DNA of 63,918 nt, counting the filler, from Limisphaerales bacterium (lineage in GTDB: Bacteria; Verrucomicrobiota; Verrucomicrobiia; Limisphaerales; SIBE01), in the NCBI GenBank assembly GCA_044225505.1. It is 3 parts of 3 records of this genome, joined end to end, with 100 filler letters (N's around TTAATTAATTAA, not from the genome) between each part and the next. Parts side by side here need not be neighbours in the genome. Positions count along the whole stretch, not along the records: positions 1 to 24,186 come from JBGAIN010000126.1; 2 more parts are not named here. The stretch is one strand, 5' to 3'. Positions within the stretch are counted from its first letter, which is position 1. Each line of letters begins with the position of its first letter. The notes beneath the pieces were generated by a model that did not search any database, was not told the DNA's origin, and worked only from the letters and a program-made list of their open reading frames with translations. Of the stretch, positions 20,874-48,736 are shown in pieces. Made by a program: the position numbers and the translations under genes.

Positions 20874-21175
20874 GGCGTCAGTCCCGCAGATACGCATGTG
20901 CGATGTTCCGCCAAAGTGCCTCACGATTGCTTGAGCCACTTCCGGACACAGTCGTCAGCGTAGGCAACTGCGCCCATCATCAAGGAAGCGGCGATTCATG
21001 ACCAGGGCCTGTAATCACAAACCATTCTCAAGTATCTGTTGCCGCTCCCGTCCATCAGCAACGCTATATATCGTCCGCTGAGGATACTGCACCCCAGGTT
21101 CCACGCCATTCCAAGAACCTCCCGCTGTCTCGCCTCAAGCGTCAACATCTATATTGCATTCTTCGGGGTGACCCC
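20874..21175 (-). mobile_element. Non-autonomous TIR element copy A (degenerate, Y1/RAYT-like transposase remnant)
   Basis: Ends GGCGTCAGTCCCGCA and TTCGGGGTGACCCC; colinear similarity to copy B (cagatacgcatgt, gcgcccatcatcaagga, ccaagaacct, cctcaagcgtcaa). Confidence 0.75.
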
Positions 21176-21224
21176 TGCGCCGTTTTCGGCGCGCTCCGCA
21201 GCAATACACGCTTGAGGGTTAGGG
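21176..21224 (-). repeat. Truncated attC site, cut at element A
   Basis: R''-like CCCTAAC overlaps the cassette gene stop; AACGCCCTAAC is complementary (1 mismatch) to the cassette start GTTAGGCCGTT; second arm absent. Confidence 0.55.
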
Positions 21225-22086: not shown

Positions 22087-22195
22087 GCTTAACCTGAAGC
22101 AGTGTATGCGCCGTGCCCAAAAACTCAAGGCTTCGGATTATCAGAAAGCGTTGAGGGCATGGCGCATACACTGCGGTTGAACTGAGCCGCTGAGC
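22087..22195 (-). repeat. Integron attC site (partly degenerate)
   Basis: GTTCAAC ... long stem GCAGTGTATGCGCCATGCCC / GGGCACGGCGCATACACTGC ... GTTAAGC. Confidence 0.75.
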
Positions 22196-22260
22196 GTGCT
22201 GAGTGTAGGGGTCAGTCCCGCAGATACGCATGTCCGGTGTTCGGCAAAAGCTTCTCACGC

Positions 22261-22371
22261 TTATTTGAGCCTCTCTCGGACACATCCGGCGGCGTAGCCA
22301 GCCGCGCCCATCATCAAGGATGCGGCGTGGTAAATCGCTCCCGGATATTGCAGCCTCAGCTTTCTCGCCAT
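22261..22371 (-). pseudogene. Y1 (IS200/RAYT-like) tyrosine transposase N-terminal remnant
   Basis: Translates MARKLRLQYPGAIYH..., the typical N-terminus of this family, then diverges and stops. Confidence 0.8.
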
Positions 22372-22520
22372 GCCAAGAACCTGCCCCTGCCTTACCTCAA
22401 GCGTCAAGACCTATATTTTATTATGCGGGACTGATAAACATTAAGGGCAGTTGAGACAAAAGGTCTCCTCACAGTTAAAACGTTGTTGTCCGTAACGAGT
22501 GAACAACAACCAACAGAACT

Positions 22521-23582
22521 ATGAGAAGACCGAAGGAAAAGCTAATCGCAGGAATGGATTTACACAGCAACAATGTGGTGATCGGCGTGATCGACCAGGA
22601 CGGCAAACGCGTCGCGCAGCGGAAGGTGGAGTGCGACTTGAAGCAAGTGACTCAGTTTCTTAAGCCGCTGAAGTCGCGGCTCCAATCGATGGCTGTCGAA
22701 TCGACGTTCAACTGGTATTGGCTGGTCGACGGTCTGCGTGCGGCCGATTATCCGGTGGACCTGGCCAACCCCGCCAAGATTGAGCAGTATAGCGGGATGA
22801 AACACGCCGACGATCAACACGATGCGTTCTTCCTGGCGGAGTTACAGCGGCTGAACATTCTGCCCAAGGCGCACGTCTACGATCCAGCGCTGCGGCCGGT
22901 GCGCGATTTGTTGCGCCGTCGCATGAATCTAGTGCATCAGCGCACGTCCTTGCTGTTGAGCTTCAAAAGCCTCTATACGCGCACAACGGGGCAAAAGCTG
23001 GATCTGCGCGAAGTCAAGAAACTGGAGCCCAAAGAGGCGCCCAAGCTCTACGAGCATCCAGCCAATCAACTGATTGCGCAAGTGCAAGCCGAGCACATTC
23101 AAGGCCTGGAGAAGAGCATCGGACGGATCGAGAAAGGCGTGCTGGCCAGCGCGCGCGAAATCCCGTTTTACGAGAAGCTGGTGACCATTCCGGGCATTGG
23201 CCGAATCCTAGGAATGACGATCACGATGGAAGTCGGAGATATCGAGCGCTTCCCGACCGACGGAGATTTTGCCAGCTACTGCCGGATGGTCGATGCCCGG
23301 CGGTTGAGCAACGGCAAATGCAAGGGAGACAATAACCAGAAGTGCGGCAACAAATACCTGGCCTGGGCCTTCGTGGAAGCGGCGAATTACGCGCGGCGTT
23401 TCGACGAACATTGCCGTCGTTGGTACGACCGCAAAGCGGCCAAGACCAGCCACGTGATTGCGACCAAAGCGCTGGGTTGCAAGCTGGCCAAAGCGGCCTG
23501 GCACGTGATGGCAGGGAACTGCGACTATGACCAGAGCCGGATGTTTCCGGAACTGGCCAACAAAACGATGAAGACCAAGTGA
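22521..23582 (+). CDS. IS110-family DEDD transposase/recombinase
   Basis: GMDLHS, VESTFNWYW, KHADDQHDA (DEDD RuvC-like); TIPGIG, RRLSNGK (catalytic Ser candidate), GNKYLAWAFVEAA. Confidence 0.96.
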   Translation: MRRPKEKLIAGMDLHSNNVVIGVIDQDGKRVAQRKVECDLKQVTQFLKPLKSRLQSMAVESTFNWYWLVDGLRAADYPVDLANPAKIEQYSGMKHADDQHDAFFLAELQRLNILPKAHVYDPALRPVRDLLRRRMNLVHQRTSLLLSFKSLYTRTTGQKLDLREVKKLEPKEAPKLYEHPANQLIAQVQAEHIQGLEKSIGRIEKGVLASAREIPFYEKLVTIPGIGRILGMTITMEVGDIERFPTDGDFASYCRMVDARRLSNGKCKGDNNQKCGNKYLAWAFVEAANYARRFDEHCRRWYDRKAAKTSHVIATKALGCKLAKAAWHVMAGNCDYDQSRMFPELANKTMKTK

Positions 23583-23587
23583 ATTTT

Positions 23588-24050
23588 GAGAGCAGCCGTT
23601 AGCCAGCAAAGGGGTTGGACCAAGAGCTCTTGGGACTGATTGGAAGCGGCTGCTCTCTGGCTGATTTAGATTCGTGCAGCTTAAAGACGCTTTGCAAGCG
23701 ATTCGACCGTGTCGCGAGTCACAAACGGGTTGGACCTCGGCAGCCGCAACGCTGCTTGGGAACCATAGCTCTATGGCACTGAATGAACGCGGCCCGGTAC
23801 TGAAAGTTCTCTGGTCCCACCGCTGGTGGGATGGGCGCAACGTGGGTGAACGCGCGCGCTTGCCAAAACGAGCGCGCGTGGTAAAGGAACGGTTGACCAA
23901 CAAAACCGAGCCGGAGGGAGATGGGCAGGAGACGTCCCGTCCGCTCCTTTCGGTTCGAAAGTTTGTGCAACCTCCTGGTCATCACCCCGACCCGCGCTAG
24001 ATCCAGATGGCTGACTGAACGGATCGCCTTCTCGAGCTCCGGCTCGAGAA
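23588..24050 (+). ncRNA. Predicted bridge/seek RNA with two target-binding-like loops and one donor-binding-like loop (ends approximate)
   Basis: Stem-enclosed loops carrying GGGGT + GGGACTGA (target), CGGGT + GGCACTGA (variant target), GTTTGT + ATGGCTGA (donor junction). Confidence 0.75.
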
Positions 24051-24186
24051 CATCCGATTCATGCAACGAGAACGCAGGTTCGTGTCTGCTGGCAGAGTTC
24101 GGGTCGGAAAAGCTGCGGCAAAACCGTTTTGAAAAAATCGGATAGATAACGTTTTTTCTTGTTGACCAGGGCCCTAATGGCTGACC

Positions 24187-24286
24187 NNNNNNNNNNNNNN
24201 NNNNNNNNNNNNNNNNNNNNNNNNNNNNNNTTAATTAATTAANNNNNNNNNNNNNNNNNNNNNNNNNNNNNNNNNNNNNNNNNNNN
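24187..24286. other. Artificial contig-join spacer
   Basis: N runs around TTAATTAATTAA (stop codons in all six frames). Confidence 0.98.
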
Positions 24287-48636: not shown

Positions 48637-48736
48637 NNNNNNNNNNNNNNNNNNNNNNNNNNNNNNNNNNNNNNNNNNNNTTAATTAATTAANNNNNNNN
48701 NNNNNNNNNNNNNNNNNNNNNNNNNNNNNNNNNNNN
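48637..48736. other. Artificial contig-join spacer
   Basis: N runs around TTAATTAATTAA. Confidence 0.98.

What the first reader, a model, noticed from the sequence alone, without database searches (positions are those of the whole stretch)
22424..24186. IS110-family element inserted precisely into the terminal inverted repeat of another mobile element
Seen: removing 22435-24184 rejoins TGCGGGACTGA+CC. That is the exact reverse complement of the intact TIR GGGGTCAGTCCCGCA at 22208-22222, as far as the gap allows. CTGA is present at both IS boundaries. Established: some IS1111 members target attC sites, REP sequences or Tn21-family TIRs. Inference: this clade parasitises the GGGGTCAG-type TIRs of Y1-transposase elements, a multicopy neutral target, and may immobilise the host element.
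Basis: partly seen in the sequence, partly recalled or inferred. Interest (0 to 1): 0.75.

Follow-up and report, generated by a model that had tools for sequence, protein, structure and literature searches.

The report
RNA-guided IS inserted in a MITE end
An IS1111-type insertion sequence sits exactly inside the terminal repeat of a small Y1-transposase-derived mobile element, and it carries its own guide RNA that spells out that site; this is a new example of a known kind of RNA-guided, repeat-targeting transposon.

Summary
A 1750-bp IS110-family element (22435-24184) splits the inner 11 nt (TGCGGGACTGA) from the outer CC.. of a 15-bp terminal inverted repeat. The intact partner repeat lies at 22208-22222. 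The host is a 231-bp MITE-like element that keeps the first 15 codons of a Y1 transposase.

The IS has the IS1111-group layout: an imperfect subterminal repeat, a 602-bp non-coding region 3' of the transposase gene, and a 70-nt hairpin (23588-23657). The loop of that hairpin holds AAAGGGG (complement of CCCCTTT right of the cut) and GGGACTGA (identical to the left flank).

In 58 related loci the 3' loop segment co-varies with the left flank (4.22 of 6 matches against 2.73 when permuted). A second segment (24007-24014) tracks the IS right end in 50 of 51 loci.

In the own genome, 4 of 5 other right-end junctions continue CCCC. Of 16 unoccupied 12-mer targets, 14 lie in ends of this MITE family. 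Contigs from other samples show insertions in both ends.

The finding is real and mechanistically explained. It is a new member of a known kind (ISPa11/ISPpu9 into REPs, IS4321/IS5075 into Tn21 repeats). Clade-wide specialisation on Y1-element ends is shown for only a minority of loci. Immobilisation of the host element is untested.

The parts
22208..22222 (+). Intact terminal inverted repeat ('A end') of the host MITE-like element, GGGGTCAGTCCCGCA
   Evidence: 10 exact and 18 one-mismatch copies of the 15-mer in the genome.
22208..22434 (.). Body of the 231-bp MITE-like host element (its last 4 nt, CCCC, are displaced to the far side of the IS)
   Evidence: There are 6 further full-length copies at 91-95% identity, 2 partial copies, and 13 copies of a roughly 300-bp subfamily at about 80%. 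All lie in different contexts.
22264..22371 (-). 36-codon remnant ORF; its first 15 residues (MARKLRLQYPGAIYH) are the N-terminus of a Y1 transposase
   Evidence: (tblastn): the same N-terminus heads full-length Y1_Tnp genes of the genome. Those genes were found and their starts are shown.
22424..22434 (+). Inner 11 nt of the interrupted 'B end' repeat, which is the left half of the IS target (TGCGGGACTGA)
   Evidence: I13. Uninterrupted copies read TGCGGG(A/C)CTGACCCC.
22435..24184 (+). IS1111-group (IS110 family) insertion sequence, 1750 bp; limits ambiguous by the shared TGA (22432-24181 is equally valid)
22439..22448 (+). Left subterminal inverted repeat CATTAAGGGC
   Evidence: Read. The left end is conserved in 38 loci.
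22521..23582 (+). Transposase/recombinase gene, 353 aa (DEDD RuvC-like domain plus Transposase_20)
   Evidence: PF01548 5e-15, PF02371 6.4e-17. NF033542 at 178.8 bits, cut-off 140. IS621 at 1.6e-8.
23588..23657 (+). Target-binding hairpin of the seekRNA/bridge RNA. Outer stem: 23588-23598 with 23647-23657. 5' loop segment AAAGGGG: 23608-23614. 3' loop segment GGGACTGA: 23632-23639.
   Evidence: MFE -35.6 kcal/mol, z -3.96; compensatory changes in the stem; the 3' segment co-varies with the left flank.
23690..23816 (+). Second conserved structured module of the non-coding region; role unresolved
   Evidence: conserved stems, and pair 157/239 is CG in 22 and UA in 21 sequences. No clear complement to the IS ends was found.
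24007..24014 (+). ATGGCTGA, identical to the last 8 nt of the IS right end: candidate donor (left-donor) guide
   Evidence: the C/G at the variable position agrees with the right end in 50 of 51 loci.
24171..24179 (+). Right subterminal inverted repeat GCCCTAATG
   Evidence: Read. Conserved in relatives.
24162..24167 (+). TTGACC, a -35-like hexamer. On circle formation it would lie 17 nt upstream of TAAACA of the left end (possible junction promoter; inference).
   Evidence: Read. The principle is described in PMC12288879, Introduction.
24185..24186 (+). CC, the first two nt of the displaced outer part of the interrupted repeat (right half of the target); the contig ends here

Best explanation
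The element at 22435-24184 is an IS1111-group member of the IS110 family of RNA-guided DEDD recombinases.

Its 602-bp 3' non-coding region encodes a seekRNA/bridge RNA. A 70-nt hairpin (23588-23657) presents two short segments in its internal loop. AAAGGGG is complementary to the top strand just right of the cut (CCCCTT(T)). GGGACTGA is identical to the top strand just left of the cut, so it can pair with the bottom strand. Together they specify GGGACTGA|CCCCTT.

In this genome that sequence exists almost only as the end of a family of 231-bp and roughly 300-bp MITE-like elements derived from Y1 (HUH, RAYT-like) transposase elements. The IS therefore lands in those ends at one position and in one orientation. 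It does so without a target duplication, by recombination across a shared (T)GA core. A further segment (24007-24014) repeats the IS right end and probably serves donor recognition.

Shown here: family membership, the site, the empty sites, repeated use of the site, and the co-variation of guide with flank.

Inferred from published work on ISEc11, ISPa11 and IS621: that the RNA is made, binds the recombinase and directs recombination through a circular intermediate.
For: (1) Family.
- PF01548 plus PF02371.
- NF033542 'IS110 family RNA-guided transposase' at 178.8 bits, cut-off 140.
- IS621 recombinase at E 1.6e-8.
- D13, E60, D98 and D101 are invariant in 26 relatives.

(2) Site in the own genome.
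- TGCGGGACTGA|IS|CC.
- 5 other right-end junctions: 4 continue CCCCT, 1 continues CCGCT.
- 16 unoccupied copies of GGGACTGACCCC, 14 of them in ends of this MITE family. About 2.3 are expected by chance (my own estimate from the base composition printed).

(3) Independent insertions.
- L019, from another genome (84% nt identity), has TGCGGGACTGA|IS|CCTC next to a Y1 N-terminal remnant.
- Contigs of 3 of the 4 runs laid join the IS left end to the other (A-type) end of the MITE, and one run joins it to a variant B end.
- Genomes of the same genus, family and order show ..TGA|IS|CCC(C/T/G).

(4) RNA.
- The hairpin has MFE -35.6 kcal/mol and z -3.96, and 0 of 200 shuffles fold as well.
- In 52 aligned relatives, 16 of 39 predicted pairs carry compensatory changes. 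For example, pair 14/75 is CG 22, GC 16, AU 9.

(5) Guide and flank co-vary.
- In 58 loci, positions -9 to -4 of the left flank match the 3' loop segment at a mean of 4.22 of 6.
- The permuted mean is 2.73 +/- 0.15, and the highest of 2000 permutations is 3.34.

(6) Donor segment.
- The internal ATGG(C/G)TGA agrees with the right end in 50 of 51 loci.

(7) Order of segments.
- The top-strand complement lies 5' of the bottom-strand complement, and the non-coding region lies downstream. This is as reported for IS1111 seekRNAs (PMC11187229, Introduction and 'A seekRNA finds the target').
Against: - No RNA data. Transcription, processing and binding of the RNA are inferred.
- Rfam has no match.
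- Co-variation on the right side is weak: 2.67 of 5 against 2.35 +/- 0.12, and some permutations reach 2.79. The 5' segment is nearly constant, so the right half could equally be read by protein.
- Only one full copy is assembled in this genome. The other five are right-end fragments, so current activity in this strain is not shown.
- Several relatives sit in flanks that match their guide poorly. L027 has no match; L038 and L066 match only ACTGA.
- The subterminal repeat is short and has one indel.
- The serine motif reads SNG rather than SG.
- I found no convincing complement to the IS left end in the RNA.
- The relatives are the 80 closest of at least 585 hits, so they are not a random sample.
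Confidence: 0.85

Rival explanations
1. The conserved flanks belong to the IS itself. Under this reading the true ends of the IS110-family element include TGCGGGACTGA and CCCC, and there is no separate host element.
For: Ends of IS110-family elements are often mis-set in databases, with target bases included in the IS or the reverse (PMC11187229, section 'Many IS, many different targets'). CCCC follows the right end in most relatives.
Against: - The host element exists many times without the IS, with the uninterrupted sequence TGCGGG(A/C)CTGACCCC. Contigs of 4 of 4 runs also show it.
- The left flank differs among relatives while the IS left end TAAACATTAAGG stays constant.
- The partner repeat at 22208-22222 has no IS beside it.
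Confidence: 0.02
2. Site choice is made by the protein, for example by recognising a hairpin or the repeat as structure. Under this reading the matches between the non-coding region and the target are a by-product of shared sequence.
For: The right half of the site (CCCC) and the 5' loop segment are nearly invariant, so co-variation cannot separate RNA reading from protein reading there. Many targets look palindromic (L038, L063, L100).
Against: - The left half co-varies with the loop segment across 58 loci, far beyond the permutations.
- The segment sits in the loop of a hairpin whose stem shows compensatory changes.
- The mechanism has been shown experimentally for four IS1111-family elements (PMC11187229, abstract and sections read).
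Confidence: 0.07
3. The junction is an assembly artefact: a chimeric join of a repeat (the MITE) and a multicopy IS in a metagenome-assembled genome.
For: The genome is a 342-contig assembly with 4.71% contamination. The contig ends 2 nt after the IS. Both partners are repeats. None of the contigs listed reproduces the window's exact left junction without differences: X15 record 12 spans it with 5 other letters, and 159 further pieces were not listed.
Against: The same type of junction (TG(C/T)GGGACTGA|TAAAC) is assembled independently in 4 runs of 4 studies, in L019, and in L079 and L108. The position agrees with the element's own guide segments.
Confidence: 0.05

Closest known systems
ISPa11 (IS1111 family), which targets REP sequences of Pseudomonas aeruginosa
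   Same: Both have a DEDD recombinase and a non-coding region downstream of tnp that gives a seekRNA with a top-strand complement 5' of a bottom-strand complement. Both have a multicopy repeat linked to Y1 transposases as target (PMC11187229, Introduction and 'A seekRNA finds the target').
   Different: The target sequence differs, and here it is the terminal inverted repeat of a 231-bp MITE carrying a Y1 gene remnant, not a short REP hairpin. The non-coding region is far longer (602 bp, three conserved modules). The serine motif reads SNG. No experiment was done here. Sequence relatedness to ISPa11 was not tested.
[quoted passage not shown]
   Same: An IS1111-type element with subterminal repeats inserts at one position and in one orientation inside the terminal repeat of another transposon. 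This is known to me only from the title of Partridge & Hall 2003 as listed in the reference lists of PMC11187229 and PMC11208160; that paper itself was not read.
   Different: The host transposon there is a DDE Tn3-family element with 38-bp repeats (the length is recalled, not from a call). Here it is a Y1-derived MITE with 15-bp repeats. Both ends of the host are used here.
ISPpu9 / ISPpu10 (IS110 family) of Pseudomonas putida KT2440
   Same: Both insert into REP sequences by recombination across a shared dinucleotide (AG there, (T)GA here). In both genomes, modules that carry only the right-hand part of the element stand alone (PMC12288879, abstract and Introduction). Compare the right-end-only fragments here.
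   Different: ISPpu9 is of the IS110 group: it has no subterminal repeats, and its RNA lies upstream. Whether the fragments here arose by modular transposition or by deletion was not resolved.
IS621 (IS110 group) with its bridge RNA
   Same: A recombinase of the same family (E 1.6e-8). It has a two-loop logic of target and donor guides that read opposite strands, and REP elements as its natural target (PMC11208160, passages found).
   Different: The RNA lies 3' rather than 5' of the gene. The donor-matching segment lies about 370 nt from the target hairpin instead of in an adjacent loop. A convincing complement to the left end was not found.

Membership tests
IS110 family (DEDD RNA-guided recombinases) | N-terminal DEDD RuvC-like domain (PF01548) and C-terminal PF02371 domain | tested here: met
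   PF01548 5e-15 (residues 10-150); PF02371 6.4e-17 (residues 218-302). NF033542 at 178.8 bits against a cut-off of 140.
IS110 family (DEDD RNA-guided recombinases) | Catalytic D-E-D-D residues | tested here: met
   D13, E60, D98 and D101 are invariant in 26 relatives. D13, D98 and D101 stand opposite acidic residues in the IS621 alignment. The IS621 residue numbers are recalled, not from a call.
IS110 family (DEDD RNA-guided recombinases) | Conserved serine in an SG (or TG) motif of the C-terminal domain | tested here: inconclusive
   The element has S263-N264-G265, invariant in 26 relatives. HMMER places the S of the IS621 SG motif opposite N264. A serine is present but shifted by one residue.
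IS1111 group | Subterminal inverted repeats (7-17 bp in PMC11208160; usually 11-13 bp in PMC11187229) with short asymmetric terminal extensions | tested here: met
   CATTAAGGGC (22439-22448) pairs with GCCCTAATG (24171-24179): 9-10 bp with one indel. If TGA is counted with the left end, the extensions are 7 nt and 2-3 nt, close to the published 7 and 3. The repeat is shorter and less perfect than typical.
IS1111 group | Long non-coding region downstream of tnp that encodes the guide RNA | tested here: met
   86 nt lie upstream and 602 nt downstream of the gene. A structured, co-varying hairpin starts 6 nt after the stop codon.
IS1111 group | In the seekRNA the top-strand complement lies 5' of the bottom-strand complement, and both match the target | tested here: met
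   AAAGGGG (23608-23614) lies 5' of GGGACTGA (23632-23639). The latter co-varies with the left flank. The rule is taken from PMC11187229.
IS1111 group | Transposase clusters with IS1111-type transposases in a phylogeny of ISfinder entries | not tested
   No ISfinder sequences were at hand.
IS1111 group | Circular intermediate with abutted ends; RNA co-purifies with the transposase | not testable with these tools
   This needs outward PCR and RNP purification.
REP/REPIN-RAYT systems (as the class of the target) | Associated Y1 protein is a RAYT (NF047646 above its cut-off) | tested here: not met
   Two full-length Y1 proteins of the genome score 62.7 and 61.4 bits against a cut-off of 80, and a third has no hit. 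They are related to RAYTs but do not pass.
REP/REPIN-RAYT systems (as the class of the target) | RAYT typically single-copy, flanked by inverted short REP palindromes | tested here: not met
   The genome has 10 Y1_Tnp matches, 9 of them above the cut-off, and they fall into several subfamilies. The repeat unit is a 231-bp MITE with 15-bp terminal repeats and a gene remnant, not a REP doublet. The inverted arrangement around a Y1 gene is similar.
IS200/IS605 family (as the class of the target) | Y1_Tnp (PF01797) transposase; no terminal inverted repeats; subterminal hairpins; insertion 3' of a fixed short target | tested here: inconclusive
   PF01797 is met by full-length relatives. The element has clear 15-bp terminal inverted repeats, which is atypical. 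A conserved (G)TCGAA flank lies outside the gene-proximal end only, which is reminiscent of a fixed target.

The most novel reading that the evidence does not exclude
A large environmental clade of IS1111-group RNA-guided elements has specialised as a parasite of Y1 (RAYT-like) transposon and MITE ends. The search returned 7997 proteins with E <= 1e-20 among the 8000 candidates scored, and the 120 listed are at least 79% identical to this one.

The clade keeps one half of the guide fixed on the conserved outer ...TGA|CCCC(TT) of those ends. It re-programmes the other half, sometimes by carrying two tandem target hairpins with different guides. In this way it follows the diversification of the Y1-element ends. 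This would be natural guide switching in a transposon-on-transposon arms race. Insertion would uncouple the Y1 recognition sequence from its terminal 4 nt.
Probability: 0.4. Interest if true: 0.6.

Novelty: new member of a known kind. Interest (0 to 1): 0.42.

Why it matters
The finding adds a well-documented natural case to the small set of IS110/IS1111 elements whose target is another mobile element. In this case the guide, the target, the empty sites and natural re-programming across dozens of relatives can all be read from sequence alone.

The clade offers many natural guide/target pairs, with one constant half-site and one variable half-site. It also includes variants with two target hairpins. 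That could inform the rules for re-programming IS1111-type recombinases.

For genome biology it shows that Y1-derived MITE ends, like REPs, act as safe landing pads. It raises the testable idea that such insertions disable the host element. The mechanism itself is already established, so this is not a new kind of system.

Tried and rejected
- Rfam (threshold 'evalue', 22100-24186) gave no match. No bridge-RNA family in that library fits this element.
- Pfam on 8 small ORFs around and inside the IS gave nothing. They are not genes I can support.
- The search for related loci in genome contigs with the single protein gave only 2 loci, and only one was a true relative. The alignment-based metagenome scan was needed.
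- I tried to read the bases beyond 24186 from public runs. Read laying lists contigs that run over the end (X1 record 8 extends 568 nt beyond it), but it does not print those letters and the cap is one call. The exact continuation of this copy therefore stays unread. C278 and C193, both starting within the IS right end and continuing CCCCTTCG, are the candidates.
- I searched for a complement to the IS left end (TAAACATT...) in the non-coding region. Only short, non-conserved matches turned up. The 'AATGT'-like stretch upstream of 24007 varies while the left end does not. I rejected it as a firm guide.
- Module 2 (23690-23816) as donor loop: its variable 3' segment does not follow the IS right end. 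Only the base before TGA follows the target (by eye, not counted). It is left unexplained.
- The protein atlas gave only 'IS110 family transposase' clusters and no useful taxonomy.
- Depth is higher over the MITE than over the IS. It sums contigs of all organisms, so I draw no copy number from it.
- The taxon of the genome was not determined.
Full report
THE OBSERVATION

The window is a chain of contigs joined by N runs (24187-24286 and 48637-48736). The finding lies at the very end of contig C219, which is window 1-24186.

Read directly:
- TGCGGGACTGA is at 22424-22434.
- TAAACATTAAGGGC... starts at 22435.
- ...GCCCTAATGGCTGA ends at 24184.
- CC follows at 24185-24186 and the contig stops.
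- GGGGTCAGTCCCGCA is at 22208-22222.

Taking out 22435-24184 restores 13 of the 15 nt of the reverse complement of that repeat. The repeat finder reports the 11-nt perfect inverted pair (I13). The 15-mer with up to 2 mismatches occurs twice in the window against 0.27 expected. The description is correct.

THE INSERTED ELEMENT

The only long ORF (22521-23582, 353 aa) has PF01548 (5e-15) and PF02371 (6.4e-17). It passes NCBIfam NF033542 'IS110 family RNA-guided transposase' at 178.8 bits against a cut-off of 140. It matches the solved IS621 and ISCro4 recombinases at 1.6e-8 and 2.8e-8. D13, E60, D98 and D101 are invariant in an alignment of 26 relatives. The conserved serine is present as S263-N264-G265, not as the usual SG.

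The element has 86 nt before the gene and 602 nt after it. Its ends carry an imperfect subterminal inverted repeat: CATTAAGGGC at 22439-22448 and GCCCTAATG at 24171-24179. By the criteria given in PMC11187229 (Introduction and 'IS1111 and IS110 family features') and PMC11208160 (passages found), this is the IS1111-group layout. I did not place the protein in a tree with ISfinder entries.

THE HOST ELEMENT

The 227 nt from 22208 to 22434 recur in the same 9.04-Mb, 342-contig genome:
- 6 further full-length copies at 91-95% identity.
- 2 partial copies.
- 13 copies of a roughly 300-bp subfamily at about 80% identity. One of these is in the window at 20874-21176.

Each copy ends in the repeat GGGGTCAG(T/G)CCCGCA on both sides and lies in a different context.

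On the minus strand the unit encodes MARKLRLQYPGAIYH followed by an unrelated tail. The same N-terminus heads full-length Y1_Tnp genes elsewhere in the genome. There are 10 matches to PF01797, 9 above the cut-off; their starts are shown. The unit is therefore a deletion derivative (MITE) of a Y1-transposase element.

Two full-length Y1 proteins hit the RAYT model NF047646 at 62.7 and 61.4 bits, below its cut-off of 80. They are RAYT-like but do not pass as RAYTs. The gene-proximal end is always preceded by (G)TCGAA.

IS THE SITE USED REPEATEDLY?

Own genome:
- Only one full IS is assembled.
- There are five other right-end pieces: 773 bp at 91% identity, 221 bp at 95%, 135 bp at 100%, and two 132-bp pieces at contig ends at 100%.
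- Their right flanks read CCCCT.. in 4 of 5 and CCGCT.. in 1 of 5. Three continue TTCGA-like, as at the gene-proximal MITE end.
- The 12-mer GGGACTGACCCC occurs 16 times unoccupied. Of these, 14 are MITE ends (12 distal, 2 gene-proximal). I estimate about 2.3 by chance from the base composition printed.

Other samples: I laid Logan contigs of four runs from four studies (activated sludge, bioreactor, wastewater, unlabelled).
- Uninterrupted MITE copies continue CCCCTTCGA after 22434 in all four runs (4, 3, 1 and 3 contigs).
- In three runs the IS left end is joined to the distal-type end (...CATGCGTATC followed by TGCGGGACTGA and TAAAC).
- In one run the same junction is seen from the other strand at 22212.
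- One run has the IS in a variant gene-proximal end.

These are metagenome contigs, so they show presence, not frequency. The letters beyond 24186 were not printed.

Other genomes:
- L019 (84% nt identity) has TGCGGGACTGA|IS|CCTCTTTGG with a Y1 N-terminal remnant in the left flank.
- In unnamed relatives of the same genus, family and order, the junctions again read ...TGA|IS|CCC(C/T/G), with one CTCT.

Neither is met.

WHY THE SITE IS SO PRECISE

Six nt after the stop codon lies a 70-nt hairpin (23588-23657). It has an 11-bp perfect outer stem, MFE -35.6 kcal/mol and z -3.96, and 0 of 200 shuffles fold as well.

Its loop holds two segments. AAAGGGG (23608-23614) is the complement of CCCCTTT. 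GGGACTGA (23632-23639) is identical to the last 8 nt of the left flank.

I fetched 80 metagenome loci with relatives of the transposase at 57-85% identity. The left end TAAACATTAAGG and the right end GCCCTAATGG(C/G)(T/C)GA are conserved.

An alignment of the region used 52 of the 57 single-hairpin loci. I left out L041, L092, L093, L096 and L097 because of divergence or a roughly 300-nt insert. In this alignment 16 of 39 predicted pairs carry compensatory changes; pair 14/75 is CG 22, GC 16, AU 9 and UA 1.

The 3' loop segment changes together with the left flank. Examples:
- L030: guide CTACGGTTTGA, flank CTACGGTTTGA.
- L090: guide CTACGGTCTGA, same flank.
- L100: guide AGGCCTGA, same flank.

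Over 58 loci, positions -9 to -4 match at a mean of 4.22 of 6. The counts of 1, 2, 3, 4, 5 and 6 matches are 1, 6, 3, 21, 23 and 4. The permuted mean is 2.73 +/- 0.15, and the highest of 2000 permutations is 3.34. Where a locus has two hairpins the better one was taken, and the same rule was applied in the permutations.

There are misses. L027 does not match at all. L038 and L066 match only ACTGA.

On the right side the 5' segment is nearly constant. The flank starts CCCC in 23 of 39 loci; the others are CCCG 6, CCTC 2, CCAT 2, CCCT 2, CCCA 2, GCCC 1 and CACC 1. Co-variation beyond CCCC is weak: 2.67 of 5 against 2.35 +/- 0.12, with a permutation maximum of 2.79.

The order of the segments (top-strand complement first) is the one published for IS1111 seekRNAs. 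Natural re-direction by exchange of these segments has been described for ISEc11 and ISXne4.

DONOR SIDE AND OTHER MODULES

The segment ATGGCTGA at 24007-24014 repeats the last 8 nt of the IS. In 51 loci its variable C/G agrees with the right end in 50. I read it as the donor guide for the right end.

I found no convincing complement to the left end.

A second conserved structured module (23690-23816; pair 157/239 is CG 22 and UA 21) has no assigned role. PMC11208160 notes that in many IS1111 orthologues the donor-binding nucleotides lie in a multi-loop structure. That is compatible with what is seen here but does not prove it.

The right end carries TTGACC (24162-24167), 17 nt before its last base. 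Abutting the ends would place it in front of TAAACA of the left end.

THE CORE

The left flank ends TGA in 56 of 58 loci. The right end finishes GTGA (17), CTGA (14), GCGA (8) or other (8) of 47. The shared core is therefore (T)GA. The CTGA on both sides in the window is not a duplication. The IS limits can equally be written 22432-24181. That choice gives terminal extensions of 7 nt and 2-3 nt, close to the published 7 and 3.

HOW FAR THE 'Y1-END PARASITE' IDEA REACHES

In the own genome it holds. Other Y1 subfamilies there also begin GGGGTC(A/G). One example is GGGGTCGTATCTAAA upstream of the MARALRVDVAGAWYH genes. This is the site type used by the relatives L034 and L095, which read TTTAGATGTGA|IS|CCCCATTGC with a matching 5' segment.

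Among metagenome loci:
- A Y1 N-terminus (..YPGA.YH..) reads away from the IS, 76-94 nt from the junction, in 7 of 40 left flanks of at least 130 nt. Six come from a motif search that also gave one false hit (L052). L019 was found by eye.
- An inverted partner of the reconstituted end lies within the available flank in 8 of 51 loci, against 0 of 51 for a shuffled control, at 36-250 nt. Some of these are short REP-like palindromes (L038, L063, L100).

Taken together, 14 of 51 loci show one sign or the other. The rest have short flanks, so the clade-wide claim is plausible but not shown. Whether insertion immobilises the host element was not tested. It separates the terminal 4 nt from the rest of the repeat by 1.75 kb.

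COMPARISON AND VERDICT

Targeting of multicopy repeats by this family is established:
- ISPa11 into REPs.
- ISPpu9 into REPs.
- IS621 into REPs.
- IS4321/IS5075 into the terminal repeats of Tn21-family transposons (title only).

The RNA-guided mechanism has been known since 2024.

My three literature searches used these terms:
- seekRNA / IS1111.
- RAYT / IS110 / REPIN / IS1111 / REP-associated tyrosine transposase.
- IS110 family / miniature inverted-repeat / bridge RNA / terminal inverted repeat / Y1 transposase.

None listed a paper on an IS110-family clade aimed at ends of Y1-derived MITEs. I read only listings and the sections named above, and no supplements. The 300-IS target tables of PMC11187229 may therefore already hold a related case.

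I rate this a new member of a known kind. It is real, precise and mechanistically explained, with a moderately interesting possibility of clade-wide co-diversification.

Noticed in passing
L022, L023, L039, L042, L043, L045, L046, L047, L055; e.g. L023:1590-1800: Several relatives carry two tandem copies of the target hairpin with different 3' guide segments. In L023 these are ..GTGGGCTGA and ..GTGGGTTGA, and the flank matches the second. This looks like a natural two-guide array that could allow two target types or guide turnover.
   Followed up: partly
own genome: C47:3942-4076, C49:2611-2830, C245:17997-18764, C278:1-132, C193:3302-3433: Right-end-only fragments of the IS (132-773 bp) each still abut the CCCC half-site. 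In C245 the fragment is flanked on both sides by CC(C/G)CTTCGAC and follows an intact MITE end. This recalls the free-standing right-hand modules of ISPpu9 (PMC12288879). Deletion versus modular transposition was not resolved.
   Followed up: partly
window 20874-21176: There is a second, unoccupied copy of the MITE family (the roughly 300-bp subfamily). One end reads GGCGTCAGTCCCGCA and the other is degenerate (TTCGGGGTGACCCC).
   Followed up: partly
window 23310-23318 (residues S263-N264-G265 of the transposase): The conserved serine motif reads SNG instead of the SG/TG reported for the family. It is invariant in 26 relatives, and HMMER aligns the IS621 serine with N264.
   Followed up: partly
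window 23690-23816: A strongly conserved second RNA module is built like the target hairpin (GGGTTGGAC ... AACCA.AGCTCT ... TGAATGAAC). The base before its TGA follows the target's base, but the module matches neither IS end. Its role is unknown.
   Followed up: partly
L058:2625-2660, L060:2232-2265, L054:1869-1900 (right flanks): The right flanks of some relatives hold tandem repeats of the half-site (e.g. CCCCTTTTTGACCCCTTTTGACCCCTTTT). L054 holds a duplicated IS tip. These may be traces of repeated insertion and excision.
   Followed up: no
window 24187-24286 and 48637-48736: The window is not one molecule. Contigs are joined by N runs around a TTAATTAATTAA linker, so nothing to the right of 24186 is the true neighbour of the IS.
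   Followed up: yes
own genome, e.g. C49:8064, C231:23196, C245:15243, C163:31476, C274:335, C340:9975: The genome carries several distinct Y1-transposase subfamilies, each with its own 5' end. Several of these ends begin GGGGTC(A/G). The proteins are about 290-330 aa and RAYT-like, but fall below the RAYT cut-off.
   Followed up: partly
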